A stretch of DNA of 48,068 nt, taken from the sequence record NZ_CP008945.1; one strand, written 5' to 3'. Under the pieces are notes generated by a model. That model worked only from the letters and a program-made list of their open reading frames with translations. It was not told the DNA's origin and ran no database searches. Each line of letters starts with the position of its first letter. The first letter of the stretch is position 1. The DNA is from a plasmid. This document shows, piece by piece, positions 1-48,068 of this stretch. Position numbers and translations under genes: made by a program.

Positions 1-4
1 CTAT

Positions 5-21
5 GACGTCGAAAATGATAA
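5..21. repeat. Left terminal 17-bp inverted repeat GACGTCGAAAATGATAA. It is the perfect reverse complement of 48042..48058. Candidate outer att arm.
   Basis: Exact reverse-complement match between the two window ends, read directly from the sequence. Confidence 0.6.
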
Positions 22-157
22 GTAGGCGTTTGCATTAGCGAGTATGCCCCAAGGGGGCCAAGAAAATCGCTTGCGTTAGCGAGTGTATAGCGCGTTAGCT
101 CTGACCTGCAGAAACGCTCCCCGAGCACTATCACTTCGCTGCTGCCACGATTTCTGG

Positions 158-218: not shown

Positions 219-1790
219 CTACAGCTGAACCCTCACTACCTCACCAACTCGGAACACGAACCGGATCGTATCCTCGTCTACGATGGCGTGGTCGATGAGT
301 GCGCTCCACTGTGAGGGGCGGAACTCGCTCACAGGTTCGCCCGCCAGATCGCCTAGGGCTGTAGTGACGGCGGCATGCTTGGCAGTGTTCGCTGCAATAT
401 CTGCCTCTAGGCTCGCTTTGCATGCGAGTGTCTTACGGTAGGCAGTATCGAGCTCTGTGTACTTGTTTTGGTAGGCGTCTTGGTCGAGCGCGCGTTGCTG
501 GTTTTCCGCAATCAGTGCTTCGATCTGCTCAGTGAGTTCCACGATTTTCGCCTGGCAGGCGGCGGCTTGTTCTTCCATGCGGCTCGTATCAAACATGGAG
601 TCAAAGATTTGCAGTAGGTGGCTTTGCCGTGACTGGCGGGCGATCAGTTGGTTGAGTGCTTGGACGAAAGCGTTCTTGATATGTTCGTCCTTCACAGTCG
701 CGCTGCTGCAAGGGTGTTCGACTGCGTATTTGTGGTTGCATTGCCAGACTGTGTACTTATATTTCGTGTTCGACGCCCACGTTTTACGCCCATACCATGC
801 ACCACACTGCGCACACTTGAGCCGGGTGGAGAATAAGCCGACTTTTGCTGACGATATGTTGCCATGCCTGGTGGTGAGCTCGTATTGCACCTGATCCCAG
901 ATACGCGGTTCGATGATCGGCTCATGATTACCTGATACATAGTATTGGGGTACTTCGCCTTCGTTGACCTTCATCTTCTTAGTAAGGAAATCGGTGGTGA
1001 ACGTCTTTTGCAGCAGGGCATCGCCCTTGTATTTTTCATTCGACAGGATGGAACGCACTGTCGACGTTGACCACACCTCTTTCCCACGCGGGGTGAGAAT
1101 CTTGCGGGTAGCGAGCTCGGTTTTGATCTCACTGATAGCCATCCCGTCAAGGAAAAGCTGGTAGATCAACCGGACAGTCGGTGCCTGGGTTTCGTCAATG
1201 ACGAGGTTACCGTCCGCTCCTTTCTTGTATCCGAGCAGCGACTTGTAGGGCACCATGACTTTTCCATCGGCAAAACGTTTCCTGTGTCCCCAGGTGACGT
1301 TTTCGGAGATAGAGCGGGATTCTTCTTGCGCCAGTGAGCTCATGATCGTGATCAATAGCTCGCCTTTGGCGTCGAAGGTGTAAATATTTTCCTTCTCAAA
1401 ATAGACCTCGACGCCTGCGTCTTTGAGCTTGCGCACGGTAGTGAGCGAGTCGACGGTGTTGCGTGCGAACCGGGACACGGATTTGGTGAGGATCAGATCG
1501 ATTTTGCCTGCCAGGGCATCATCGATCATGGTTTGGAATCCCTCACGGCGCTTCATAGAGGTGCCAGAGATACCTTCGTCGCAGTACATGCCCGCGAACT
1601 GCCAATCATTACGGGAGCGAATGTAGGTGGTGTAGTAGTCGATTTGCGCCTCATATGATGAGGTTTGTTCTTCCATCTCGGTAGAGACTCGCGCGTAGGC
1701 GGCGACCTTTCTGCGTGCCGGTACCCCGGACGGGGTTGTGACAGTTCCGGGTTTCTTTGTTGCGGGTATCGCAGTGACCGTGCGACTCAT
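219..1790 (-). CDS. Large serine recombinase (resolvase/invertase-type catalytic domain plus recombinase and zinc-ribbon domains), copy A.
   Basis: N-terminal YARVST...SGTSMKRREGFQ...KSVSRFARN serine-recombinase motifs. 523 aa. The ATG overlaps the stop of the upstream recombinase (ATGA). Confidence 0.85.
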   Translation of the reverse strand: MSRTVTAIPATKKPGTVTTPSGVPARRKVAAYARVSTEMEEQTSSYEAQIDYYTTYIRSRNDWQFAGMYCDEGISGTSMKRREGFQTMIDDALAGKIDLILTKSVSRFARNTVDSLTTVRKLKDAGVEVYFEKENIYTFDAKGELLITIMSSLAQEESRSISENVTWGHRKRFADGKVMVPYKSLLGYKKGADGNLVIDETQAPTVRLIYQLFLDGMAISEIKTELATRKILTPRGKEVWSTSTVRSILSNEKYKGDALLQKTFTTDFLTKKMKVNEGEVPQYYVSGNHEPIIEPRIWDQVQYELTTRHGNISSAKVGLFSTRLKCAQCGAWYGRKTWASNTKYKYTVWQCNHKYAVEHPCSSATVKDEHIKNAFVQALNQLIARQSRQSHLLQIFDSMFDTSRMEEQAAACQAKIVELTEQIEALIAENQQRALDQDAYQNKYTELDTAYRKTLACKASLEADIAANTAKHAAVTTALGDLAGEPVSEFRPSQWSALIDHAIVDEDTIRFVFRVGEVVRVQL

Positions 1791-3037
1791 GCCAACCTCC
1801 CCTCACTGGTTAAGCCCACCGGCGTCATAGTTCCATCCGCGAGGTGGAATGTGAGCTGGTGCGGGAAGGCTTCAATCATCACGATCTGCTCGCCAACCTG
1901 GACGGGGTCGAAACTTTGGGTGCCGAGCATGTCTGCGCAGGCTTGTTCGAGGAGTGTTTCGCGTAGGTTGTGCCCCCTACAGGGGTTGCCGTTCCCGGTG
2001 CAGGCACTCCAGCACCGCCAAAACTTATACGAGGTTCCAGACTTGTAGGTGCGGGTTTTGCGTTGATAGTTCTTCCCGCACGCGCCGCAGCAGATCCGTC
2101 CAGTGAACACGCCCGTGTTCTTTGACGGGGTCGCCGCCGGACCAATCTCGCGCCGATGAGCGATTTCTGCTTGCACCGCGTCAAACATCTCCTCGTCAAT
2201 GATTGGTGGGAGGGCTTGCTCAACCCAGTATCGCGGCAGCTCCCCGTCGTTGAGGGCACATGTGGGTGCTTGGATTGTGGGGCGGTACATTTTCTGTAGC
2301 ATTTGGCAGCCCTTGTAGCGCTCATTTTCGAGCATGCGACGAAACACTGACCCGTAGAAGCGTCCTCCACCGCGCGAACGCGCCCCTTGACCATTGAGGA
2401 TCGCGGCTGTCTTTTCCGGGCTGATCCCATCGAGATAATTGGCAAACAGTAAGCGCACAATCTTGGCTTCATCTTCAATGATGGTGAACTGGCCGTCTGC
2501 CCAGCTATAGCCGTAGACGACGAAAGAATTTGTGCCACCGTTCTTGTACCGGTTACGGATTGCCCATTTGACGTTCTGGGACAGGGAACGGGATTCTTCT
2601 TGAGCAAACGACGCCAACAAGGTCAGCAGGAGTTCTCCGTCAGCGCTGAGAGTGTCGATGCGTTCGCGTTCGAAGCGCACAGCCACACCAAGGTCTTTCA
2701 GCTCACGAACCGTAGCGAGCAGGTCGACAGTGTTGCGGGCAAGGCGCGAGATCGATTTACACAACACAAGATCGATCTTTCCTGCTCTGGCTGTGTTCAT
2801 CAGGTCGGCCAGGCCTTGCCGGGATTTCATCGAAGTGCCAGTAACCCCTTCGTCAGTGAATACACCCGCATAGGCCCATCCGGGCGTGGATTGGATCAGG
2901 CGCGAATAATACGACACTTGCGCCGATAGGGATGCTAACTGCTCGACGGCGTTGGTTGAGACCCGCGTGTATGCTGCTACGTTGACCAGTTTCGGGGTCG
3001 GCGGCCGAACTGGTGTCACCACACTAACTTGTGCCAC
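1787..3037 (-). CDS. Large serine recombinase, copy B. The likely start is the GTG at 3037, preceded by GAAAGGAG; the ORF track extends to 3067.
   Basis: AAYTRVST...GVTGTSMKSRQG...KSISRLARN motifs. A Cys-rich zinc-ribbon region. A C-terminal coiled-coil-like segment. Confidence 0.85.
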   Translation of the reverse strand: MAQVSVVTPVRPPTPKLVNVAAYTRVSTNAVEQLASLSAQVSYYSRLIQSTPGWAYAGVFTDEGVTGTSMKSRQGLADLMNTARAGKIDLVLCKSISRLARNTVDLLATVRELKDLGVAVRFERERIDTLSADGELLLTLLASFAQEESRSLSQNVKWAIRNRYKNGGTNSFVVYGYSWADGQFTIIEDEAKIVRLLFANYLDGISPEKTAAILNGQGARSRGGGRFYGSVFRRMLENERYKGCQMLQKMYRPTIQAPTCALNDGELPRYWVEQALPPIIDEEMFDAVQAEIAHRREIGPAATPSKNTGVFTGRICCGACGKNYQRKTRTYKSGTSYKFWRCWSACTGNGNPCRGHNLRETLLEQACADMLGTQSFDPVQVGEQIVMIEAFPHQLTFHLADGTMTPVGLTSEGRLA

Positions 3038-3060
3038 GTTTTCTCCTTTCGTGTTAGGTC

Positions 3061-3099
3061 TATACACGCTCTAAACCAGGTGTTTATCCAGTCGTTTCG
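3061..3099 (-). promoter_or_regulatory. R-motif copy 1 (CGAAACGACTGGATAAAC...TTTAGAGCGTGTATAGACC), immediately upstream of the recombinase B RBS.
   Basis: Shares the CGA[A/T]ACGACTGGATAA core and the TTTAGAG[C/T]GTGTAT segment with the copy at 23157..23213. Confidence 0.5.
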
Positions 3100-3293
3100 C
3101 CCACAATCTGTGGTTGATAGATCGGGCTCAACGCCTGGAACAACAACCGATAGACACGCCGATACTCTGCGGGGGTTAGCACTCCTCGACCTGCCAGCAT
3201 GCTCAACGTGTGAGCGTCAGTAATGAAGGCGAGTTCTCGGGTGAACACCTCGGGCCTTGTCATCTGGTCGACCGTGGTGGCGAGCGTGTTCAT
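3084..3293 (-). CDS. Small hypothetical protein (69 aa), translationally coupled to the upstream zinc-ribbon gene by an ATGA overlap.
   Basis: ATG at 3293 overlaps the stop at 3290 of the preceding gene. No recognisable domain. Confidence 0.35.
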   Translation of the reverse strand: MNTLATTVDQMTRPEVFTRELAFITDAHTLSMLAGRGVLTPAEYRRVYRLLFQALSPIYQPQIVGETTG

Positions 3294-3673
3294 GAGCGCC
3301 CACCTCGGGTGCCAAAGCGAGCACGCACATAACAGGCGTGACAGCAATACTTTTGACCTGGCTTGTCCACGATCACGAAGCGGTGCCCGCAGTGTGCACA
3401 GGTCTGCTTGCGCACGGGCTCGGTTTTCTGCCGTTCCCGCCAAGCTTTATGCCTGCAGGCGGGCGAGCAAAACCGAGCACGAGCACCTCCCCGAATAGGG
3501 CTGGCACACCAGCGGCACACCCGCTGAGCCACCACTGAACCGGCCTCGAGATTTCGGCTGGTGCAGTATGAACGGACCTGGTCACGGGTCAAGGCGCAAA
3601 ACTCGGCAATCGCTTTATACCCCCAGCCTGCTGTGCGCAGGTTACGGATACGTTCTTCTTCAATGTTCTTCAC
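3290..3673 (-). CDS. DNA-binding protein with an N-terminal HTH (sigma region-4-like) and two CxxC...CxxC zinc ribbons. Possible regulator or recombination directionality factor.
   Basis: CRWC...CSPAC and CAHC...CCHAC motifs. GTG start preceded by GAAGGGAG. An X-motif lies upstream. Confidence 0.55.
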   Translation of the reverse strand: MKNIEEERIRNLRTAGWGYKAIAEFCALTRDQVRSYCTSRNLEAGSVVAQRVCRWCASPIRGGARARFCSPACRHKAWRERQKTEPVRKQTCAHCGHRFVIVDKPGQKYCCHACYVRARFGTRGGRS

Positions 3674-3825: not shown

Positions 3826-4638
3826 TTAGTAGCCGAGCTTGGCGTTCACTCGCGCTTGCACAGCGCTGTAGAGGTTTCCGAGACGGCGTTTACGCTCTTC
3901 GCCATTGCCGTACTCGCCACGGATCACGGCATCGGCAAGAGCATCGATGTTGGGCCCGGCGGGCTTCGTGGGCGTTCGGCCGGAGAGCTTTTCGTTGACT
4001 CGCTGTTGGACGGCGGCGTAGTTGGCTCCGAGGCGACGCTTGCGCTCATCCCCGTTGCCGTAGTCGCCACGGATCACGGCATCGGCGAGAGCGTCGATGT
4101 CCGGTGTGGCTGGTGCTGGTACTGGGGTGTTGCCGGTCATCTGCTCATACCAAGACTGTGCTCGTGCCATATACGCGGCGTGCTGACTGCCTGCCAGCGA
4201 GGCGGGGCATTCGGTCGAGGAGAAGTTCTTGTGCCCGAACACGTTCTTCCCCCAGACCGGTCGGCCGAGACCGTAGAACTTGCAAACGGCCGCGACGAGG
4301 TGTGCTCCGTTATCAAGGCACGCCTCCGACACAGCCCATGAATCACTAGTCATGTCGGCGTGTTCGATGCCGATGGAGGTGGTGTTGGCTACCCAGTTTC
4401 CTGCGTGCCAGGCGGTATCACGGTCCCACACCAACTGGCCTATGCGTCCGTCGGATTGAACTTGGTAGTGGGCGGAAGCAGGACGGGTTTGCCACACGTC
4501 GTAACATCCCTTGATGGTGAGGTTTCCGGCGTTGTGGTGGATGATGACCTTATCGATCCGTCTACCGTTCCTGCCGGGTGTGTAGTGCTTGTTCATGATG
4601 AGGCCGATATCGGCCTCAAGCGCGAACCAATTCTTCAT
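3826..4638 (-). CDS. Endolysin: N-acetylmuramoyl-L-alanine amidase (Amidase_2/PGRP) with two C-terminal CW_7 (Cpl-7-type) cell-wall-binding repeats.
   Basis: HHNAG...WHAGN amidase_2 signature. Two ~42-aa repeats IDALADAVIRG(D/E)YGNG(D/E)ERKRRLG...VQ.RVN.KL. RBS AAAGGAG. Confidence 0.85.
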   Translation of the reverse strand: MKNWFALEADIGLIMNKHYTPGRNGRRIDKVIIHHNAGNLTIKGCYDVWQTRPASAHYQVQSDGRIGQLVWDRDTAWHAGNWVANTTSIGIEHADMTSDSWAVSEACLDNGAHLVAAVCKFYGLGRPVWGKNVFGHKNFSSTECPASLAGSQHAAYMARAQSWYEQMTGNTPVPAPATPDIDALADAVIRGDYGNGDERKRRLGANYAAVQQRVNEKLSGRTPTKPAGPNIDALADAVIRGEYGNGEERKRRLGNLYSAVQARVNAKLGY

Positions 4639-15201: not shown

Positions 15202-15528
15202 CTACACCTTCCAATCCCGGTCCAGGCGCAGCAGATTGTTCACCGCGCTCCATACCGCCCGCGCAGCATCTGGCTTATCTGCCCAGAAGCCTGCCGTGGA
15301 ACCATCACGAGACTCATAGAAATGGCTGGCGAGCATGACAATGCCTTGCCGGGTTGCTCCACTCATCTCGTGTGTTTCGTAGTGGTTTTCGGGCAGGTGC
15401 TGATAGGAGCAGGCGTAGGAGGTGGCCGCGTTGATCAGCGCGCCGATCAATTGATCGTCATCGTCAAAGGTGATGAGCAGATTCGCCTTCACCTGCGCAA
15501 CCAAATCAACCGTGGTCATTGCGGCCAC
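15202..15528 (-). CDS. Head-tail connector (gp6-like DNA packaging protein).
   Basis: Synteny: immediately downstream of the major capsid gene. Confidence 0.5.
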   Translation of the reverse strand: MAAMTTVDLVAQVKANLLITFDDDDQLIGALINAATSYACSYQHLPENHYETHEMSGATRQGIVMLASHFYESRDGSTAGFWADKPDAARAVWSAVNNLLRLDRDWKV

Positions 15529-15549
15529 CTCCTTCCACTGTCGCCGGGG

Positions 15550-41196: not shown

Positions 41197-44100
41197 TCAG
41201 GAGTCGTCTCGTTGGCTATCCTCGTGCCGGGGTCGGTTGAGGCGGTCGTGGATGAGCGGGAGCAGGATCGCGTCCACGTCGGCTCGGAAGGCTTTGTCCG
41301 ACAGGTACTTCATGGAGAAGTCGTGATTTTGGGTCATCCGCGCCAGCATGACGTCGGGCATCTTCTCGTCGTAGATGATCTTGAACAGGTCGAGCGGGTT
41401 ATGGGCACGCAGCTGGATCTCGTTGTCTTGGGCGAGGTCGTCGGCGACCTGTTCGAGCACTTTGTCCATGTTGGTGAACTCGGTGCCCCATCGTTCGTTG
41501 AGGGAGTCGAGGATCTTTGAGAGTCGCTCGCGGTCGTCTTCGGTGGGCATGCTCAGCTTGGGCGAGTTGTTCAACTCACCCACCTGGTCTTGTAGGTCGA
41601 TGGAGCCCTCGTAGACCGACTGGAGCCGGTAGTACTGCAAGGTGACCTCATCATCCAGGTGTGGGGCGGGGTCGCCGTCGATGTGGAGCTTGCGGGTCAG
41701 CAGTTTCGCGTATGCGGCGAACTTGTGCAGCTGCTCGTCGTCGAAGCGGATGATGTGGGTCAAGAACTCGTAGTTGCGGTTGAACTTGTTGAACGCCGAG
41801 CGCACCTCGACTTTTTCCTCGTCGTCAAGGGCGTCGAAGCGGCCGACCGCCGGGTCGAGATAGGCGTTGAGCCTGCCAAAGTCGAGGTTGGTCTGCTGCT
41901 TCTGCTCTCTGAAGAACACGGTCGCGAACCCGTCGATCTCCTCGACCTGCCACAGCTGGTAGGAGGCGATCAGGTGGTAGAGGTCGTAGACGATGTTCGG
42001 GTCGGTTTCCTCGCTGATCGAGGTCGACACGTAGTAGTCCTGGAACGCCGCCTGAATGTCGTCAGCGCTGTTGACGAAGTCCAACACGAACGTGTCTGAC
42101 TTGCCCGGGCACATCCGGTTGATCCGTGACAGAGTCTGCACGGCCTTGACCCCGTGGAGCTTCTTGTCCACATACATGGTCTGCAGCAGGGGCTGGTCGA
42201 ACCCGGTCTGGTATTTCTCGGCCACCAGCAGAATCTGGTACTCACCGGTGTCGAACCGGTCTGGCAGCTCGGCTTCGGGGAAGCCGTTGAGTTGTTCCTC
42301 GGTGTAGTCATGCCCGTCGTCTTCGACGGTGCCGGAGAACGCCACCAGCACACCCAGGTCGGTGTAGCCCTTGGCTTTGATGTAGTTGGCGAACGCGAAG
42401 TAGTAGCGTACCGCGTGCAACCGGGAGCCGGTCACCAGCATTGCCTTGGCTTTGCCGCCGATCTTGTGCGCCACGTTGCTGCGGAAGTGCTCGATGATGA
42501 TCTCGGCCTTCTGCCGCAGATTGTGCGGATGCAGGGCTAAGTACTTGCCCAGCGCCTTGTTGGCCTGCTTCTTGGCGTACTCCGGATCGTCAGCGGTGGC
42601 CTTACCAACCTTGTAGTACGTCTGGTAGGTGATGTAGTTCGCCAGCACGTCGAGGATAAACCCCTCCTCGATCGCCTGCTTCATCGAATACACATGGAAC
42701 GGGCGCGGCGCGCCACCAGGCGTCGGAGTGCCGAAAATCTCCAGAGTCTTCTGCTTCGGGGTGGCCGTGAACGCGAAGAACGACAGATTCGGCTGACAAC
42801 CGTGGGTAGCCATGTCGGCGGCGATCTGCTCGTCAACCTCCAACTGTTCGGTCTCCACCTGAGCCTCAGCCTTCGCATACCGATCCAGCAACTCGGCCTC
42901 AGACTCCTGACCCGCTTGGGCAGTGTCAGCCAGCACCTGCTTGAGCCGCTCAGATGCCTGCCCGGTCTGCGACGAGTGCGCCTCATCCACAATCACCGCG
43001 AACCGCTTCCCGACCGTCACAATGTTGGACACGTCAACGAACGGAAACTTCTGCAACGTCGAAATGATGATCCGAGCACCCCGACCCAGCGCATCAGTGA
43101 GCTGACGGGCGTTCTTGTCCACCTTCACCACCACACCGGCGGTGTGATCCATCGAAAACACCGTGTCCTGGAGTTGCTTGTCCAACACCCTCCGGTCAGT
43201 GATCACAATGATCGAATCAAACACCACCCGCTGCTCGTCATCATGCAGGTTTGACAGGTGGTGAGCCAGCCACGCGATCGTGTTCGACTTGCCCGAGCCC
43301 GCCGAATGCTGCACCAAATAGTTATGACCAGCGCCGTTCGCCTTCGCGTCCGCGATGAGTTTACGCACCGCATCGAGCTGGTGGAAGCGCGGAAAGATCA
43401 CCTTGTCTTTCGACTTCGCCGAACGCCCCTCGGGAGTCTTGCCGGGCACGAACTGCACAAACCGGTGCAAAATATCAAGCAGTGAATCCTTCGCCAGCAC
43501 CTGCTCCCACAAATACGAGGTCTTGAACTTCCCCTCCACCGGAGGATTACCAGCACCATTCTGGAAACCTCTGTTGAACGGCAGGAACACCGTATCTTGA
43601 CCGGCCAGCTTCGTCGTCATCCACACCTCATCGGTGTCAACCGCGAAATGCACCACCGCACGCCGATTCAACCCAAACAACGGCTCCGAGGCCGGGCGAT
43701 CCCGCTTGTACTGGGCGATCGCGTTCCGGTAGGTCTGCCCCGTCAGCGGGTTCTTCAACTCGAGCGTCGCCACCGGGATGCCGTTCACCAACAGCACCGT
43801 GTCAACCGAGTTCTCACTGCGCGTTGAATACCGCAGCTGGCGCACGATGCTCATCTCGTTCGCCCAATACTTCTCAGCAAGCACCTCGTTCAAGTCAGTG
43901 CCGGGAGCAAAATACACCAGCTTGAACCGAGCACCCACATCCTCAACGCCACGGCGCAACACATCGATCACACCACGCTGATCAAGCTGCGCAGCGACAC
44001 GCTTCAGAAACTTCTGCTCCGCGTTACCCCGGTAACTGCGCTCCAACTTCGCCCACTGATCAGGCTGAGTAACCTTCACAAACCGGATCAGATCCGCAGG

Positions 44101-44226
44101 ATACAGACACAGCTCACGATCAAAACCCTGCGGGTCACGCGACTCAAAGCGGTCAAACTCCGCGCCCCGGGCAGTCAGCCAGTACTCGATCTCCGACTCA
44201 AACCGCCGCTCCGACGTATCCATCAC
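41197..44226 (-). CDS. hsdR: Type I restriction enzyme R subunit (HsdR).
   Basis: 1009 aa. N-terminal Type I/III restriction domain. DEAD-box helicase motifs (GSGKS, DEAH). Confidence 0.9.
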   Translation of the reverse strand: MMDTSERRFESEIEYWLTARGAEFDRFESRDPQGFDRELCLYPADLIRFVKVTQPDQWAKLERSYRGNAEQKFLKRVAAQLDQRGVIDVLRRGVEDVGARFKLVYFAPGTDLNEVLAEKYWANEMSIVRQLRYSTRSENSVDTVLLVNGIPVATLELKNPLTGQTYRNAIAQYKRDRPASEPLFGLNRRAVVHFAVDTDEVWMTTKLAGQDTVFLPFNRGFQNGAGNPPVEGKFKTSYLWEQVLAKDSLLDILHRFVQFVPGKTPEGRSAKSKDKVIFPRFHQLDAVRKLIADAKANGAGHNYLVQHSAGSGKSNTIAWLAHHLSNLHDDEQRVVFDSIIVITDRRVLDKQLQDTVFSMDHTAGVVVKVDKNARQLTDALGRGARIIISTLQKFPFVDVSNIVTVGKRFAVIVDEAHSSQTGQASERLKQVLADTAQAGQESEAELLDRYAKAEAQVETEQLEVDEQIAADMATHGCQPNLSFFAFTATPKQKTLEIFGTPTPGGAPRPFHVYSMKQAIEEGFILDVLANYITYQTYYKVGKATADDPEYAKKQANKALGKYLALHPHNLRQKAEIIIEHFRSNVAHKIGGKAKAMLVTGSRLHAVRYYFAFANYIKAKGYTDLGVLVAFSGTVEDDGHDYTEEQLNGFPEAELPDRFDTGEYQILLVAEKYQTGFDQPLLQTMYVDKKLHGVKAVQTLSRINRMCPGKSDTFVLDFVNSADDIQAAFQDYYVSTSISEETDPNIVYDLYHLIASYQLWQVEEIDGFATVFFREQKQQTNLDFGRLNAYLDPAVGRFDALDDEEKVEVRSAFNKFNRNYEFLTHIIRFDDEQLHKFAAYAKLLTRKLHIDGDPAPHLDDEVTLQYYRLQSVYEGSIDLQDQVGELNNSPKLSMPTEDDRERLSKILDSLNERWGTEFTNMDKVLEQVADDLAQDNEIQLRAHNPLDLFKIIYDEKMPDVMLARMTQNHDFSMKYLSDKAFRADVDAILLPLIHDRLNRPRHEDSQRDDS

Positions 44227-45416
44227 GCAGCCTCCTCACTAACCCGAACCTTGCCCGTCACCACATCATTAATAACCTGCTTGCGATAAGCACCCAACAA
44301 CTCCATCTGGCGGTCAATATCGCCAATCAAGCCGTCAATTTCTGCTGTCTTCGAATCGAGGAAATCTGCGATTTCTTCCTGCTCGCGAAGCGGCGGAAGA
44401 AGTGTTGGCAGTTTCCTTAGTTCTGAATAGTTCAACGACTGCCGCACGCCAGATCCAAGCCCGTAGAAAATCTTCTTTAGATCGTAAGCGCGCATCATCC
44501 ATCCAAGGAATCGCGGATCTATCTGAGCCCCGGGAATAAGCCCAATGTATGCTCCTGTGATGATTCCACGTTCACTAACGTAACCACTGCGCAGGCTTCT
44601 CTTGTCATTTTGCAGATCGGTCATGCGTAGAACTACATACCCAGGATTAACGATTTGATAAGTATCAAACGAAGCTGACAACAGCCCAAAAGCCAGATTA
44701 ATATCCTTGCGAATGATCGAACCGTAGCTAAGGCTCAGGAGATTACTCTCCGAAAGATCCTTGTTCTTCGTTTTGTTCTCATCGGTCATATTTGAAAGCG
44801 TCTGGATCTGCCACGCTTCTGGGATCTCGCCGATCCACTGCAACCCACTTTCTTTCATGGGGGCTTCGGGGTCGAGTCCCTTCGTGACGGTGTGGGCGAT
44901 CAACTCACGCTTGTAACGCTCCAACAACTCCCGCTGGCGCCTGAGCTTCTCGACCACCACGTCAATCTCAGCAGTCTTCGCATCCAAGAACGCAGCCATC
45001 CGTTCCTGTACTTCAATGTGCGACGGTATGGAAATTCGAACCTTCTCGATAACGCTGGCTGATATTCCCGGCTGTGCAGCCGCCTGAGAATATTGATTTA
45101 GATTCATTTGGATTAGCAGATAATACAAATACCTTGGGAGAACAAGACCGGAGATCGAGGCGATAAGTGCATGCTCGGATGCATATGCGGGTTGTGCAAC
45201 AAAGTGCACGTTTCCGGCCAGTGCTCCCTGCCGACCCACTAGAAGGTTAGTTCCTTCAATATTCGATGTCTCGGTGTACCCTCTTATTCCGTTACCTCCA
45301 AATACTGGATAGGTTCCCGTTTCGTGGATCTCTTCTCCTCGAATAGATCCACCGGAACGGAATCTGGCTAGTCGCTTAAGCGGGATTTCCAAACTTCCAC
45401 CTGGGTAACTGTCCAT
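44223..45416 (-). CDS. hsdS: Type I restriction-modification specificity subunit (HsdS) with two target-recognition domains.
   Basis: Two TRDs separated by conserved coiled-coil spacers (..LDAKTAEID..). Lower GC than the flanking genes. Confidence 0.85.
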   Translation of the reverse strand: MDSYPGGSLEIPLKRLARFRSGGSIRGEEIHETGTYPVFGGNGIRGYTETSNIEGTNLLVGRQGALAGNVHFVAQPAYASEHALIASISGLVLPRYLYYLLIQMNLNQYSQAAAQPGISASVIEKVRISIPSHIEVQERMAAFLDAKTAEIDVVVEKLRRQRELLERYKRELIAHTVTKGLDPEAPMKESGLQWIGEIPEAWQIQTLSNMTDENKTKNKDLSESNLLSLSYGSIIRKDINLAFGLLSASFDTYQIVNPGYVVLRMTDLQNDKRSLRSGYVSERGIITGAYIGLIPGAQIDPRFLGWMMRAYDLKKIFYGLGSGVRQSLNYSELRKLPTLLPPLREQEEIADFLDSKTAEIDGLIGDIDRQMELLGAYRKQVINDVVTGKVRVSEEAA

Positions 45417-47465
45417 CTATACCGCCTGCTCACTGAATAGTTTGGCGATGGAGGCTTGGATGTGGGCTCCAAGGCTTTGGATTTCGGCGAGGGTTTTGGT
45501 TGGGTCGCCGAGTTCTTCGTATTGGTAGAAGTAGCGGGTGAAGGGGATCTCGTAGCCGATCTTGGTCTTGTCGGGGTCGACGTAGGCGTCGGCCGCGTAG
45601 GGGATGACTTCGCGCTGGATGTAGGCGTCGATGTCTTCAGCGAGTGGGATCTGCTCGGTGTCGCGCAGCGCAGGGTCAGGTTCCGGGTTGCCCTTGGTGT
45701 CGCGGCAGATGTCTGCAGTCGGGTCAGTTTCACCCAGAGCCACCACGATCGCTTTCAACAGCGGGGCGCGCACCGTCAAACCATGCTCTTTGAAAGAGGC
45801 TTTGAGGACCTTCGTGAATTCGTCTCGGTTCTTCCACACCCGCTGGTCGCCGAGAGTTTCGATGGCGTCGACGATCGCTCGTTGGGTCTTCTTGCCGCCC
45901 TCGATCTCTTGGGTGCGGGCGGCTTCGCTACGCTTCTTCGAGGTGGCCAGATTCTTGAACGGGGTCCGCTCCCAGACTCGCTCGACGCGCTCAGGTGTGG
46001 CGGTGAAGTTCAAACGTAGCGGGCGTTCCACCGTGACTTCATGGAAGCCGAACTCGCGGGTGTCGAAAATCTTGGAGTGCTCACCCTCGGTGAAGTCGCC
46101 GTAGATGCGCGCGATCTGGGCAATGTTGTCAGCGGTGAGGTATTTGCGTTTTTCGCCGAGCGGTTTGCGCATCCTGGCAAAGAACTTGGTGGCGTCGATC
46201 AGTTGCACCTTGTTCTTGCGGATCGATGCCTTCCGGTTGGAGAGCACCCAGATGTAGGTAAGGATGCCGGTGTTGTAGAACATCTGGTCAGGCAGGGCGA
46301 CGATGGTCTCAAGCCAGTCGTTTTCAAGAATCCAGCGACGAATGTTCGACTCGCCCGACCCTGCCGCGCCGGTAAACAGGGGCGAGCCGTTGAACACGAT
46401 CCCGATCCGAGTGCCCGGCGCGTTCTGCGTATCAGCCGGATCGTAAGACTTCATCTTCGAGATCATGTGCTGCAAGAACAGGAACGACCCATCAGAGATT
46501 CGGGGCAGGCCAGCGCCGAAGCGCCCCTTCCACCCCCGCTTCTCGGCCTCGTCCTTGATCGGGCCTGCGTACTTCTTCCATTCCACGCCGAAGGGTGGGT
46601 TGCACAGCATGTAGTTGAACGTCCGACCCGCTGTTCTGTCAGCGGTCAGCGAGTTGCCGAAGTAGATTCGGTCGGCGTCATCGCCCTTGATGAGAATGTC
46701 GGACTTTGCCACCGCGTAGGATTGCGGGTTGAGCTCCTGCCCGTACACTTCGATGCGCGCGTCGTCGTTGAGGACCCGGGCTCGTTCGATCGCTTCGGAG
46801 AGCATGCCACCGGTGCCAACTCCCGGGTCATACAGCGACGCCATGAACCCGGGCGCGCATATGGCATCCATGTCCGGGTCGAACAGCACCTCGACCATGA
46901 GCTGGATGACTTCACGTGGGGTGAAGTGCTCACCGGCGGTCTCGTTGGACAGCTCGTTGAATCGCCGGATCAGTTCTTCAAAGATCGACCCCATGTCTTC
47001 GTTGGAGACCGCTGCAGGTAAGAAGTCCACCGCAGGGTCAGTGAAAGCATCGACGATCTGGTAGAGCAGATCGGAGCGGTCGAGACGGTCAATCACGGTA
47101 TAGAAGTCGTAGGACTTCATCACGTCGCGGGCGTTCCGCGAAAAGCCCTCCACGTAGGAGCGCAGGTTACCTTCCAGGTTGTCAGGATCGTTCTTGAGCG
47201 TGTGCAGCGTGAACCTGGAGGTGTTCCAGAACGGGTAGCCCGTAGCTCTCGCGTATTGGATGCGCTTGACCTCAGCCGGGACACCCTTCTGGTCACGAAT
47301 CTGGGCAACTTTGTCCTTCGTACTCACGAGAACCGAATCGAGACGGGTAAGCACCGTGAACGGCAAGATCACGTCCCCGTACTCGTGCTCCTTGTAGTCA
47401 CCGCGCAGCAGGTTCGCAATCTTCCAAATGAAGCTGACATAGTTCGTTGTTTTCTCAGTGCCCAT
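45417..47465 (-). CDS. hsdM: Type I restriction-modification N6-adenine methyltransferase subunit (HsdM).
   Basis: HsdM N-terminal domain (IWKIANLLRGDY..EYGDVILPFTVLTRLD). NPPF catalytic motif. SAM-binding region. Confidence 0.9.
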   Translation of the reverse strand: MGTEKTTNYVSFIWKIANLLRGDYKEHEYGDVILPFTVLTRLDSVLVSTKDKVAQIRDQKGVPAEVKRIQYARATGYPFWNTSRFTLHTLKNDPDNLEGNLRSYVEGFSRNARDVMKSYDFYTVIDRLDRSDLLYQIVDAFTDPAVDFLPAAVSNEDMGSIFEELIRRFNELSNETAGEHFTPREVIQLMVEVLFDPDMDAICAPGFMASLYDPGVGTGGMLSEAIERARVLNDDARIEVYGQELNPQSYAVAKSDILIKGDDADRIYFGNSLTADRTAGRTFNYMLCNPPFGVEWKKYAGPIKDEAEKRGWKGRFGAGLPRISDGSFLFLQHMISKMKSYDPADTQNAPGTRIGIVFNGSPLFTGAAGSGESNIRRWILENDWLETIVALPDQMFYNTGILTYIWVLSNRKASIRKNKVQLIDATKFFARMRKPLGEKRKYLTADNIAQIARIYGDFTEGEHSKIFDTREFGFHEVTVERPLRLNFTATPERVERVWERTPFKNLATSKKRSEAARTQEIEGGKKTQRAIVDAIETLGDQRVWKNRDEFTKVLKASFKEHGLTVRAPLLKAIVVALGETDPTADICRDTKGNPEPDPALRDTEQIPLAEDIDAYIQREVIPYAADAYVDPDKTKIGYEIPFTRYFYQYEELGDPTKTLAEIQSLGAHIQASIAKLFSEQAV

Positions 47466-47664
47466 TCGGGTCAACTCCATCTTCCATCAATCGCTCGTAA
47501 CGCTCATGCGACATGACCACCACGAGAGGCTTTCCGTAACGCAACACGTAGGCCACATCGTCACCATCAGCCACTTCCTTGAGCAGCTTCGATGCCTGAC
47601 CACGTCCAAGGTCGCCAATGTTGATGTGCTTCATCGACTTCTTCGCCGTACGCTTCCGCACCAT
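47455..47664 (-). CDS. Phd/YefM-family antitoxin-like DNA-binding protein, translationally coupled to hsdM (11-nt overlap).
   Basis: KHINIGDLGRGQASKLLKEVADGDDVAYVLRYGKPLVVVMSHERYERL matches the Phd/YefM fold pattern. No cognate toxin gene follows. Confidence 0.6.
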   Translation of the reverse strand: MVRKRTAKKSMKHINIGDLGRGQASKLLKEVADGDDVAYVLRYGKPLVVVMSHERYERLMEDGVDPNGH

Positions 47665-47775: not shown

Positions 47776-48041
47776 TGAAGATGGAGACATGTGCGCGAGC
47801 CAGAACGCCCCACAAGGTCGAAGGTGGGCACGGTCTTATCAATCACAATTGAGGGCACGCCCCCTCGCCAGATATCCGCTAACGCAAGCCCACCAGCAGA
47901 CCCCCTCAACCAGAAACGTGCACCACTCCAACGGGAAGATCGGGGACGAGCACCCGATTACTGAACCTCCAGCACACCAGCGAACAGCCCCAGAAACAAC
48001 AAAATCCCTGGTCAAAAGGGGTTCAGGAACTCACGCGGTTT

Positions 48042-48058
48042 TTATCATTTTCGACGTC
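48042..48058. repeat. Right terminal 17-bp inverted repeat TTATCATTTTCGACGTC, the reverse complement of 5..21.
   Basis: Exact match, read from the sequence. Confidence 0.6.
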
Positions 48059-48068
48059 TTTGTTTCCA

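What the first reader, a model, noticed from the sequence alone, without database searches (positions are those of the whole stretch)
219..3067. Two tandem, translationally coupled large serine recombinases instead of a single integrase
Two full-length large serine recombinases (523 and ~417 aa, clearly diverged paralogues) overlap by ATGA. Phages usually carry a single serine integrase. Paired serine recombinases are the hallmark of ccrA/ccrB cassette recombinases and of some clostridial and Bacillus elements. A heteromeric integrase in a complete HK97-like prophage would be unusual. It may dictate an asymmetric att site, although the terminal inverted repeat is perfect.
Basis: partly seen in the sequence, partly recalled or inferred. 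Interest (0 to 1): 0.55.

Follow-up and report, generated by a model that had tools for sequence, protein, structure and literature searches.

The report
Paired serine integrase genes in prophage
The two overlapping serine recombinase genes are real and both look active. This pair is the standard, already described integration module of a large family of temperate phages, so it is an ordinary member of a known but biochemically unstudied kind.

Summary
On the minus strand, a 416-aa large serine recombinase ("A", 1787-3037) overlaps a 523-aa one ("B", 219-1790) by ATGA. The two proteins are 39% identical, and both keep every catalytic residue.

The pair is not unusual. In 106 of 106 related loci with enough sequence, an A-type gene is followed directly by a B-type gene. 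These loci come from actinobacterial genomes, IMG/VR viral contigs, streptococcal Javan prophages and gut Ca. Heliusvirales phages. The same arrangement was published for Streptococcus phages phi1207.3 and phi-m46.1 and was compared there with SCCmec ccrAB.

New details from this work:
- A-type proteins form one clade, and the A-type proteins examined lack the coiled-coil motif that B keeps.
- The pair belongs to a four-gene cassette (Z, S, A, B) that ends in a terminator next to the attachment site.
- attP is a 48-bp imperfect palindrome around a TC/GA crossover, at the CCA end of a tRNA gene.
- The variable positions of the att arms track B's C-terminal DNA-binding domains, not A.

Most likely mechanism (inferred, not shown): a two-subunit integrase, where B reads the sites and supplies the coiled coil, and A is a catalytic partner.

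Verdict: new member of a known kind, of moderate to low interest.

The parts
219..1790 (-). B-type large serine recombinase, 523 aa. Catalytic domain with nucleophile S36, recombinase domain, zinc ribbon, coiled-coil hairpin (about residues 403-480) and a C-terminal helix plus three-strand tail.
   Evidence: ORF. Pfam domains. AF2 model m2a24b8eccf76 shows helices 403-432 and 437-480, then strands 499-522. Invariant catalytic residues.
1787..3037 (-). A-type large serine recombinase, 416 aa (GTG start at 3037; the open frame extends to 3067). Same domains as B, with nucleophile S27, but no coiled-coil motif.
   Evidence: ORF and RBS. Closest homologues mostly 412-416 aa. Pfam domains. AF2 model mfadd1807cd50 (pLDDT 83.6) goes from the zinc ribbon straight to short helices and strands 385-409. 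LSR fold matches to SprA, Bxb1 and PhiC31.
1787..1790 (-). ATGA overlap between the stop codon of A and the start codon of B, with GGAGG upstream inside A. Probable translational coupling.
   Evidence: Read directly from the sequence. The same 4-nt overlap occurs in 28 related loci.
3084..3293 (-). S: small ORF of 69 aa, function unknown. Its ATG overlaps the stop of Z by ATGA.
   Evidence: Sequence. Conserved at 74-96% identity in actinobacterial relatives. No family match.
3290..3673 (-). Z: 127-aa protein with four CxxC pairs, two of them in an FCSxxC-like context. By eye the N-terminal part looks like a helix-turn-helix. Function unknown; first gene of the cassette.
   Evidence: PHROG 2308, unknown function. 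No Pfam, NCBIfam or PDB match. Found upstream of A in 98 of 99 loci with room. Annotated 'zinc-finger protein' in phage Javan93.
162..209 (-). Hairpin followed by UUUUCUC, just after the stop of B. Probable intrinsic terminator closing the Z-S-A-B unit.
   Evidence: RNA fold, -29.7 kcal/mol, z = -2.1. The sequence is conserved in relatives.
1..21 (.). Phage half-site of the tRNA-proximal junction: CTAT + GACGTCGAAAATGATAA. By inference from relatives, the crossover TC and the tRNA gene lie just outside the window.
   Evidence: Inverted repeat. In 13 relatives the same arm is followed by NNNN-TG-GA-GC..., the 3' end of a tRNA gene called in 11 of them: tRNA-Gly(CCC) in 8, tRNA-Gly(TCC) in 2 and tRNA-Thr(CGT) in 1.
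48042..48068 (.). Other phage half-site, TTATCATTTTCGACGTC-TTTGTT, then the crossover dinucleotide TC (48065-48066) and CA. This is the TCCA repeat of the tRNA end.
   Evidence: Joining the two window ends gives a 48-bp attP. An intact site of the same design is present in IMG/VR contig L112 at 4112-4159.
30..103 (.). Two to three copies of the motif TTGCGTTAGCGAG (GCTAACGC on the other strand) next to the att arm, with one more copy at 47875-47887. Possible accessory protein-binding sites.
   Evidence: (repeat I2). Conserved in relatives with TTATCA-type arms and absent from three lineages with GTATCA-type arms.

Best explanation
**What it is.** The two genes encode the two subunits of one integration/excision enzyme. 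They belong to a widespread phage family in which an ancient duplication of a large serine recombinase became fixed as an obligate pair.

**How it most likely works.**
- B is a complete, canonical integrase.
  - Its C-terminal recombinase, zinc-ribbon and coiled-coil domains read the att arms.
  - These domains supply the only coiled-coil motifs used for synapsis and directionality control.
- A has lost the coiled coil but keeps a full catalytic domain and both DNA-binding domains. It is made in step with B through the ATGA overlap.
- A is proposed to occupy some of the four half-sites in the synaptic tetramer as a catalytic partner, as described for CcrA with CcrB.
- The enzyme recombines a 48-bp attP with an attB at the CCA end of a tRNA gene, exchanging strands at TC/GA.

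**Shown here.** The gene pair, its conservation, intact active sites, absence of a coiled coil in A, the att geometry, and the covariation of arm sequence with B.

**Inferred.** Physical A-B assembly, which half-sites A occupies, and any role of Z and S.
For: **Obligate linkage.** In 106 of 106 loci with downstream sequence, an A-type gene is followed by a B-type gene, overlapping or at most 13 nt away.

**Ancient paralogy.** Median identity is 51% within A, 57% within B and 34% between A and B. The A clade, including phi1207.3 orf56, has 167/200 NJ bootstrap support.

**Selection for catalysis in both.** The nucleophile Ser, the Arg residues and the Asp are invariant in 95 A-type and 81 B-type sequences. 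The zinc-ribbon cysteines of A are invariant.

**Coiled coil.**
- It is absent from A and present in B in the AF2 models.
- The long A-types shown from Heliusvirales-type contigs carry a second zinc ribbon plus tail, not a coiled coil.
- A coiled-coil deletion of the Listeria integrase still catalyses intramolecular recombination but cannot integrate and loses site selectivity (PMC3783163). A is therefore plausibly active but dependent on a partner.

**Co-expression.** There is an ATGA overlap with an internal SD, and one terminator follows B.

**Site reading by B.**
- The variable N6 of the arm (TATCA-N6-ACGTC) follows the B lineage, not the A lineage.
- Mosaic elements keep A and the catalytic domain of B at 95-98% identity.
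- In the same elements B's zinc-ribbon, coiled-coil and tail regions fall to 25-61%.

**Precedent.** CcrA and CcrB are described as working as a heterotetramer (PMC10581047). The authors of the phi1207.3 sequence proposed that its two recombinases cooperate.
Against: - No experiment and no complex prediction shows that A and B touch each other.
- B has everything a single serine integrase needs and might suffice alone.
- A and B do not co-vary tightly. For example, in L003 A is 94% but B 73% identical to the window proteins, and in L025 A is 85% and B 63%. Intimate heteromers often co-evolve. The conserved unit 'A + B catalytic domain' may simply reflect physical linkage.
- A's DNA-binding domains are well conserved across elements whose arm sequences and targets differ. 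No DNA site could be assigned to A.
- One lineage breaks the arm/B covariation. L028 has a B 89% identical to that of L003 but a different N6.
Confidence: 0.55

Rival explanations
1. Division of labour. B alone is the integrase for attP x attB. A, which lacks the coiled coil, is a dedicated excision (attL x attR) or resolution enzyme, or a built-in directionality subunit that replaces a classical recombination directionality factor.
For: A Listeria integrase without its coiled coil recombines every site pairing intramolecularly, including attL x attR, but cannot integrate (PMC3783163). This is the behaviour expected of an excision-only enzyme. No recognisable RDF was found. Both A and B have the extra C-terminal beta strands that were suggested to block the usual RDF site in the SCCmec recombinases (PMC12286644).
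Against: A and B appear to be co-translated from one message. This gives no obvious switch between integration and excision. A would have to read the same arms as B, yet arm variation follows B and not A.
Confidence: 0.2
2. A serves another purpose in the phage, unrelated to integration, and merely sits next to the integrase gene. Possible roles are DNA inversion, multimer resolution, or use of a second target site. Several automatic annotations call it a 'DNA invertase'.
For: A-type genes are labelled DNA invertase in several Heliusvirales records. A's DNA-binding domains do not track the att arms.
Against: A has the full large-serine-recombinase build, not that of a small invertase. The only perfect copies of the att-arm motif in the 48-kb window are the two terminal arms, and no convincing internal pair of recombination sites was found. 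The strict adjacency and overlap with B in 106 of 106 loci across two phyla would be hard to explain for an unrelated function.
Confidence: 0.1
3. Redundancy or decay. One of the two is a relic of a duplication or of a former neighbouring element and contributes nothing.
For: None specific. This is the null hypothesis for a duplicated gene.
Against: Both reading frames are intact in essentially all relatives. Catalytic residues are invariant in both clades over a divergence down to 35-45% identity within each clade. This requires long-term purifying selection on both.
Confidence: 0.03

Closest known systems
Tandem recombinases orf56/orf57 of Streptococcus pyogenes prophage phi1207.3 (also phi10394.4, phi-m46.1 and many 'Javan' streptococcal prophages)
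   Same: - A short upstream LSR (412 aa) overlaps a roughly 521-aa downstream LSR at the prophage end, just after the lysis genes.
- orf56 falls in the A clade, and B is 47% identical to orf57.
- The attP arms have TATCA at -23..-19 from a GA/TC centre in both phages.
- The published interpretation is that the two cooperate, as ccrAB do.
   Different: - The host phylum differs: Actinomycetota here, Bacillota there.
- The target here is a tRNA 3' end rather than comEC or rum.
- Sequence identity is only 37-47%. By BLAST, A is about equally similar to orf56 and orf57.
- phi1207.3 lacks the Z gene between the lysin and the small ORF, whereas Javan93 has it.
- No search found a biochemical test of the streptococcal pair.
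CcrA/CcrB of staphylococcal SCCmec
   Same: - Two co-transcribed large serine recombinases, a shorter one upstream of a longer one, are described as acting as a heterotetramer.
- The central dinucleotide is GA, and a TATCA-containing core lies in the att sites.
- Extra C-terminal beta strands follow the second DNA-binding domain.
   Different: - The window proteins are not orthologues. Both A and B score best on the CcrB model (143 and 114 bits against a cut-off of 900) and worse on CcrA (69 and 55 bits against 700). The A/B duplication is therefore separate from the CcrA/CcrB split.
- The element here is a tailed prophage at a tRNA gene, not a cassette in rlmH.
- Whether CcrA also lacks a coiled coil was not tested here.
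Triplets of serine integrases in streptococcal integrative conjugative elements
   Same: Several adjacent LSR paralogues cluster by their position in the array. This implies an ancestral multi-gene module that is inherited as a unit (PMC4701971).
   Different: There are three genes rather than two, in conjugative elements rather than phages, with targets inside protein-coding genes. Relatedness to A and B was not examined.
Canonical single serine integrase plus RDF (PhiC31, Bxb1, SPbeta SprA/SprB, Listeria A118/LI)
   Same: B has the full domain set, including the coiled coil. The A model matches these structures over its catalytic, recombinase and zinc-ribbon domains. attP is about 50 bp, an imperfect palindrome around a 2-bp crossover.
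   Different: Those systems use a homotetramer of one protein, and directionality rests on coiled-coil contacts among all four subunits plus an RDF. Here a second catalytic paralogue without a coiled coil is always present, and no RDF is recognisable.

Membership tests
Large serine recombinases (serine integrases) | N-terminal resolvase-type catalytic domain with the nucleophile serine and the conserved Arg/Asp set | tested here: met
   PF00239 at E = 2e-34 (B) and 9e-33 (A). S36 in B and S27 in A, with the partner residues, are invariant across 81 and 95 sequences.
Large serine recombinases (serine integrases) | Recombinase domain (PF07508) followed by a zinc-ribbon domain (PF13408) | tested here: met
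   Both domains exceed the Pfam cut-offs in both proteins. The A model has fold matches to SprA, Bxb1, PhiC31 and LI integrases.
Large serine recombinases (serine integrases) | Coiled-coil motif projecting from the zinc-ribbon domain | tested here: inconclusive
   Met for B (helices 403-432 and 437-480). Not met for A or for the A-type relatives shown in the alignment. A is therefore an atypical, coiled-coil-less member.
CcrA/CcrB cassette chromosome recombinases | Score above the NCBIfam equivalog cut-off for CcrA (700 bits) or CcrB (900 bits) | tested here: not met
   B scores 142.6 on CcrB and 68.8 on CcrA. A scores 113.7 on CcrB and 54.7 on CcrA.
CcrA/CcrB cassette chromosome recombinases | Carried by an SCC-type cassette integrated in rlmH (orfX) | tested here: not met
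   The element is a 48-kb tailed prophage. Its relatives sit at the 3' end of tRNA-Gly or tRNA-Thr genes.
CcrA/CcrB cassette chromosome recombinases | Both recombinases act together (heterotetramer) | not testable with these tools
   Only the gene organisation (overlap, obligate linkage) is shown. An assembly test needs biochemistry or complex prediction.
phi1207.3 / phi-m46.1-type tandem LSR integration module of temperate phages | Short upstream LSR overlapping or abutting a downstream LSR of about 520 aa, at the prophage end after the lysis genes | tested here: met
   The window has 416 aa + 523 aa after the amidase and holin genes. phi1207.3 has 412 + 521 aa. Javan93 has 402 + 521 aa.
phi1207.3 / phi-m46.1-type tandem LSR integration module of temperate phages | Upstream and downstream proteins belong to the two corresponding paralogue groups | tested here: met
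   The A clade, including orf56, is supported in 167 of 200 bootstraps. The outgroup joins the B side. B matches orf57 best. Caveat: by pairwise BLAST, A scores about the same on orf56 and orf57.
phi1207.3 / phi-m46.1-type tandem LSR integration module of temperate phages | attP arms of about 23 bp with TATCA at -23..-19 around a GA/TC crossover | tested here: met
   The geometry is identical in the window, in L112 and in the ends of phi1207.3. The crossover position in the window is inferred from symmetry and from relatives, not measured.

The most novel reading that the evidence does not exclude
The Z-S-A-B cassette may be a distinct and very common class of multi-component serine integrase. 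In it, a catalytically active paralogue without a coiled coil takes some of the four positions in the synaptic tetramer. Directionality would then be set by subunit composition, and perhaps by the zinc-finger protein Z bound to the GCTAACGC repeats next to attP, rather than by the canonical four-coiled-coil plus RDF mechanism.
Probability: 0.3. Interest if true: 0.65.

Novelty: new member of a known kind. Interest (0 to 1): 0.35.

Why it matters
Serine integrases are prized genome-engineering tools because one protein and two short sites are enough. Two-recombinase systems such as SCCmec CcrAB remain poorly understood.

This work shows that a paired system is the norm in a very large group of phages of the gut, mouth and skin. 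These include Heliusvirales, streptococcal resistance-carrying prophages and actinobacterial prophages.

The pair always combines one coiled-coil-bearing subunit with one coiled-coil-less subunit. The attP is defined, and the tRNA target is inferred from relatives. Together these give a tractable model for how heteromeric serine recombinases divide site recognition, catalysis and directionality.

For this particular window, however, the pair is simply the expected integration module of its phage family.

Tried and rejected
1. **Palindromic attP.** I first read the 17-bp repeats as a 28-bp perfect palindrome centred on CG. That would have raised a polarity problem.
   - In relatives, the 4 nt after GACGTC follow the phage lineage, not the host tRNA.
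   - The TATCA motif would have sat 10 bp too close to the centre compared with phi1207.3.
   - An intact 48-bp site exists in L112.

2. **Origin of the window.** An exact-sequence look-up of B found nothing on record.

3. **Misiura et al. 2013 on CcrA/CcrB.** The paper could not be read because it is not held. Statements about CcrAB therefore rest on secondary citations.

4. **Assigning a DNA target to A.** Neither the arm N6, nor the tRNA versus non-tRNA target, nor the GCTAACGC repeats follow the A lineage.

5. **Promoter scan.** It was uninformative: one site found against 1.6 expected.

6. **Z and S.** Neither has a match in Pfam, NCBIfam or the PDB.

7. **First bootstrap script.** It timed out and was rerun on a thinned set.

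8. **One copy inactive.** This idea was rejected.

9. **A as part of a separate inserted element.** This idea was rejected.
Full report
**1. The observation**

The window carries two adjacent minus-strand ORFs: 219..1790 (523 aa, called B here) and 1787..3067 (426 aa from the first GTG, called A). The true start of A is almost certainly the GTG at 3037. It is preceded by GAAAGGAGAAAAC and gives 416 aa, and the closest homologues are mostly 412-416 aa long.

Window 1787-1790 reads tcat, which is ATGA on the coding strand. A's stop therefore overlaps B's start, and a GGAGG lies a few bases upstream inside A. Both proteins have the three Pfam domains of large serine recombinases (Resolvase, Recombinase, Zn_ribbon_recom), well above the cut-offs. 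They are 39% identical. The surrounding element is a tailed prophage with an HK97-type capsid gene, ClpP-like protease, portal, large terminase, tape measure, holin and amidase.

**2. The pair is a fixed, ancient unit, not an oddity**

*Phage records.* A DNA search against phage records immediately hit pairs of recombinase genes in Streptococcus 'Javan' prophages, phiSsuJS7, PhiSdyV1524 and gut Ca. Heliusvirales phages. In Javan93 and in Acutalibacteraceae phage NatCom_11578 the order is the same as here: lysin, a zinc-finger-like protein, a small ORF, the upstream recombinase, then the downstream recombinase at the genome end. A protein search of the phage collection found 203 records. All but one short fragment of the 40 best hold two or more recombinase-like places.

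*Genomes and viral contigs.* I collected three sets of loci:
- 23 loci from one-per-species genomes. The hosts are Actinobaculum, Varibaculum, Winkia, Arcanobacterium, Mobiluncus, Gleimia, Trueperella, Schaalia, Corynebacterium and others, with A 87-97% identical in 21 of them.
- 80 loci from IMG/VR, where at least 592 stretches matched.
- The annotated phage loci.

In all 106 loci that extend far enough, the A-type gene is followed at once by a B-type gene. The two either overlap or lie at most 13 nt apart. The only three exceptions run off the end of their contig.

*Paralogy.* Identities are 51% (median) within A, 57% within B and 34% between A and B. With an outgroup, the A clade, including orf56 of phi1207.3, has 167/200 bootstrap support, and the outgroup joins the B side. 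A-type proteins therefore look like a derived offshoot of ordinary integrases. Labels were first assigned by relative phmmer score. The independent fact is that the A-labelled gene is always the upstream one.

**3. The literature already describes it**

Iannelli et al. 2014 (PMC4260502) reported the following for S. pyogenes prophage phi1207.3:
- orf56 (412 aa) and orf57 (521 aa) both carry the three LSR domains and sit at the right end after the lysis cassette.
[quoted passage not shown] - They noted the same tandem arrangement in SCCmec and in phi-m46.1.

Triplets of serine integrases that cluster by position are known in streptococcal ICEs (PMC4701971). CcrA and CcrB are described as acting as a heterotetramer (PMC10581047). 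I found no paper that tests a phage pair biochemically. My searches cover only open-access text.

**4. Are both active?**

Yes, as far as sequence can tell. In an alignment of 95 distinct A-type and 81 distinct B-type proteins, several residues never vary:
- the Tyr, Arg and nucleophile Ser of the YxRVS motif (S27 in A, S36 in B);
- the Asp of DEG;
- the two Arg of the SRxxRN motif.

A's four zinc-ribbon cysteines are invariant too.

**5. What distinguishes A from B**

AlphaFold2 models were built from 31-sequence alignments.
- B follows its zinc ribbon with two long antiparallel helices (403-432 and 437-480). This is the coiled-coil motif of serine integrases. A short helix and three strands come next.
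- A goes from the zinc ribbon through two short helices straight to the same three-strand tail (pLDDT 83.6).
- A still matches full-length SprA, Bxb1, PhiC31 and LI integrase structures.

Lack of a coiled coil holds for all the A-type proteins inspected. The short A-types (402-475 aa) shown in the alignment lack the insert. The two 555-618-aa A-types shown, from Heliusvirales-type contigs, carry a second zinc ribbon plus tail instead of a coiled coil.

This matters because a coiled-coil deletion of the Listeria integrase remains catalytic. It recombines every site pairing intramolecularly but cannot integrate (PMC3783163). The C-terminal strands recall the extension noted in AlphaFold models of the SCCmec recombinases, which was suggested to block the usual RDF site (PMC12286644).

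**6. The cassette**

A 127-aa protein (Z, 3290..3673) lies upstream of A. It has four CxxC pairs, two of them FCSxxC-like, and belongs to PHROG 2308 of unknown function. By eye its N-terminal part looks like a helix-turn-helix. Next comes a 69-aa ORF (S, 3084..3293), whose ATG overlaps Z's stop, again by ATGA. Z is found upstream of A in 98 of 99 loci with room, across both phyla. A hairpin followed by a U-run sits after B's stop. The functional unit is therefore Z-S-A-B plus a terminator, placed directly beside the attachment site.

**7. The attachment site**

*Junction with the host.* The perfect 17-bp terminal inverted repeat lies at 5-21 and 48042-48058. It is the outer part of the phage att arms. 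In 13 relatives the arm next to B is followed by four lineage-specific bases and then TGGAGC.... ARAGORN calls this the reverse complement of the 3' end of tRNA-Gly(CCC) in 8 loci, tRNA-Gly(TCC) in 2 and tRNA-Thr(CGT) in 1. No tRNA was called in one locus and one short contig was not scanned.

*Reconstructed attP.* Joining the window's two ends gives TTATCATTTTCGACGTC-TTTGTT-TC-CACTAT-GACGTCGAAAATGATAA. This is 48 bp, with arms identical at 20 of 23 positions around a central TC (GA on the other strand). The window begins just after the position where, in relatives, the tRNA's CCA ends. It ends with the TCCA repeat.

*Two independent checks.* An IMG/VR contig (L112) contains an intact site of the same design, with spacer TAAGTATCCACTAT. 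On one side its flank matches the window's right end. On the other it matches the non-coding 200 nt at the window's left end, followed by other (cargo-like) ORFs rather than B. The ends of phi1207.3, whose GA crossover is experimental, give arms with TATCA at exactly the same distance from the centre, -23 to -19.

The site is thus a normal serine-integrase attP with a non-palindromic crossover. Nothing about it demands a heteromer.

**8. Which protein reads the site?**

Across actinobacterial lineages the arm has the form TATCA-N6-ACGTC-N6-crossover.
- The N6 block and the base before TATCA follow the B lineage.
  - L003 (A 94%, B 73% to the window) and L030 (A 66%, B 67%) share AATCCG, and their B proteins are 80% alike.
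  - L025 (A 85%, B 63%) and L035 (A 55%, B 56%) share AAATGA, and their B proteins are 81% alike.
- Domain by domain, the mosaics keep A and the catalytic domain of B at 95-98%. B's recombinase, zinc-ribbon, coiled-coil and tail regions drop to 82/61/44/50% in L003 and 73/31/25/29% in L025.
- One exception exists. L028 has a B close to that of L003 but another N6.

I conclude, as inference, that B's C-terminal half determines arm specificity. I could not assign any DNA feature to A. Neither the arm, nor the target type, nor a repeated GCTAACGC motif beside the arm follows A.

**9. Mechanism and rivals**

*Best supported (about 0.55).* This is an obligate two-subunit integrase in which B recognises the arms and provides the coiled coils, while A is a co-translated catalytic partner in the tetramer. 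A mixed tetramer would carry fewer coiled coils than a canonical one. Directionality control should therefore differ from that of PhiC31, Bxb1 or SprA, perhaps approaching the relaxed site selectivity reported for CcrAB.

*Against it.* There is no evidence of physical contact, B looks self-sufficient, and A and B co-vary only loosely.

*Rivals.*
- B integrates and A excises or sets direction (0.2). This fits the coiled-coil-deletion phenotype but not the co-translation or A's insensitivity to arm sequence.
- A has an unrelated role such as inversion (0.1). No internal site pair was found, and the strict linkage argues against it.
- One copy is a relic (0.03). The conservation excludes this.

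**10. Comparison and verdict**

In organisation and probable operation this is closest to phi1207.3 orf56/orf57, of which it is a distant family member, and to CcrAB, which it resembles but does not belong to. Both proteins fall far below the NCBIfam Ccr cut-offs and both prefer the CcrB model, so the duplication is separate.

The finding is real but ordinary for this phage family, and it has been published in outline. What may be new is the family-wide picture: obligate pairing in over a hundred loci across two phyla, a partner without a coiled coil, the Z-S-A-B cassette, and site specificity residing in B. I cannot show that this is unpublished.

Novelty: new member of a known kind. Interest: 0.35.

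Noticed in passing
window 41197-47480 (minus strand): A type I restriction-modification system appears to be carried inside the prophage next to the right att arm. HsdM is at 45417-47480 and HsdR at 41197-44226. A 397-aa ORF (44223-45416) lies between them and is probably the specificity subunit.
   Followed up: partly
window 30-103 and 47875-47887; also L005, L007, L003, L030, L028, L112: The motif CTC-GCTAACGC-AA occurs two to three times within about 110 nt of the att arm next to B, and once near the other arm. It is conserved in lineages with TTATCA-type arms and absent from three lineages with GTATCA-type arms. Serine integrases normally need no accessory sites. Z is a candidate binder.
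   Followed up: partly
window 3290-3673 (Z) and 3084-3293 (S): Z is an uncharacterised 127-aa protein with four CxxC pairs and a helix-turn-helix-like N-terminus (by eye). It sits upstream of the recombinase pair in 98 of 99 loci across Actinomycetota and Bacillota, followed by a small ORF. There is no family or structure match. Either could be a directionality or regulatory factor.
   Followed up: partly
L002, L040-L106 (IMG/VR and Heliusvirales loci): The two long upstream recombinases inspected (555 and 595 aa; the class spans 555-618 aa) end in a second copy of the zinc ribbon plus beta tail rather than a coiled coil. This domain duplication may give an extra DNA-binding module.
   Followed up: partly
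L008-L011, L016, L022, L027 (after position ~7820); L012 4487-6593: In several close relatives extra genes lie between the B gene and the att arm. One class begins with a conserved membrane-protein-like ORF, and L012 has a 2.1-kb insert. This position is apparently a hotspot for cargo. phi1207.3 carries an ADP-ribosyltransferase toxin gene at the same place.
   Followed up: no
L003 (Corynebacterium jeikeium LS483459.1, 2249194-2262444): The Z-S-A-B cassette survives here without phage genes, flanked by IS-type transposase genes. It is a probable remnant, or a cassette moved by insertion sequences.
   Followed up: no
L013, L014, L015 (Mobiluncus curtisii, Gleimia europaea, Mobiluncus mulieris): The A and B proteins score identically against the window proteins in all three loci, which come from three species. 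The elements sit at different tRNA genes: Thr-CGT in one and Gly-TCC in two. This shows recent cross-genus spread and tolerance for different tRNA 3' ends as targets.
   Followed up: partly
L112 4112-4159 (IMGVR_UViG_2806310650_000001): An intact 48-bp attP lies inside a 61.7-kb contig derived from an isolate genome. The phage may be present there as a circle, a tandem copy or a permuted assembly rather than a simple integrated prophage.
   Followed up: no
window 15410-15540: An inverted repeat with 28-nt arms (79% complementary) separated by 75 nt lies near the capsid gene region. It is unexplained.
   Followed up: no
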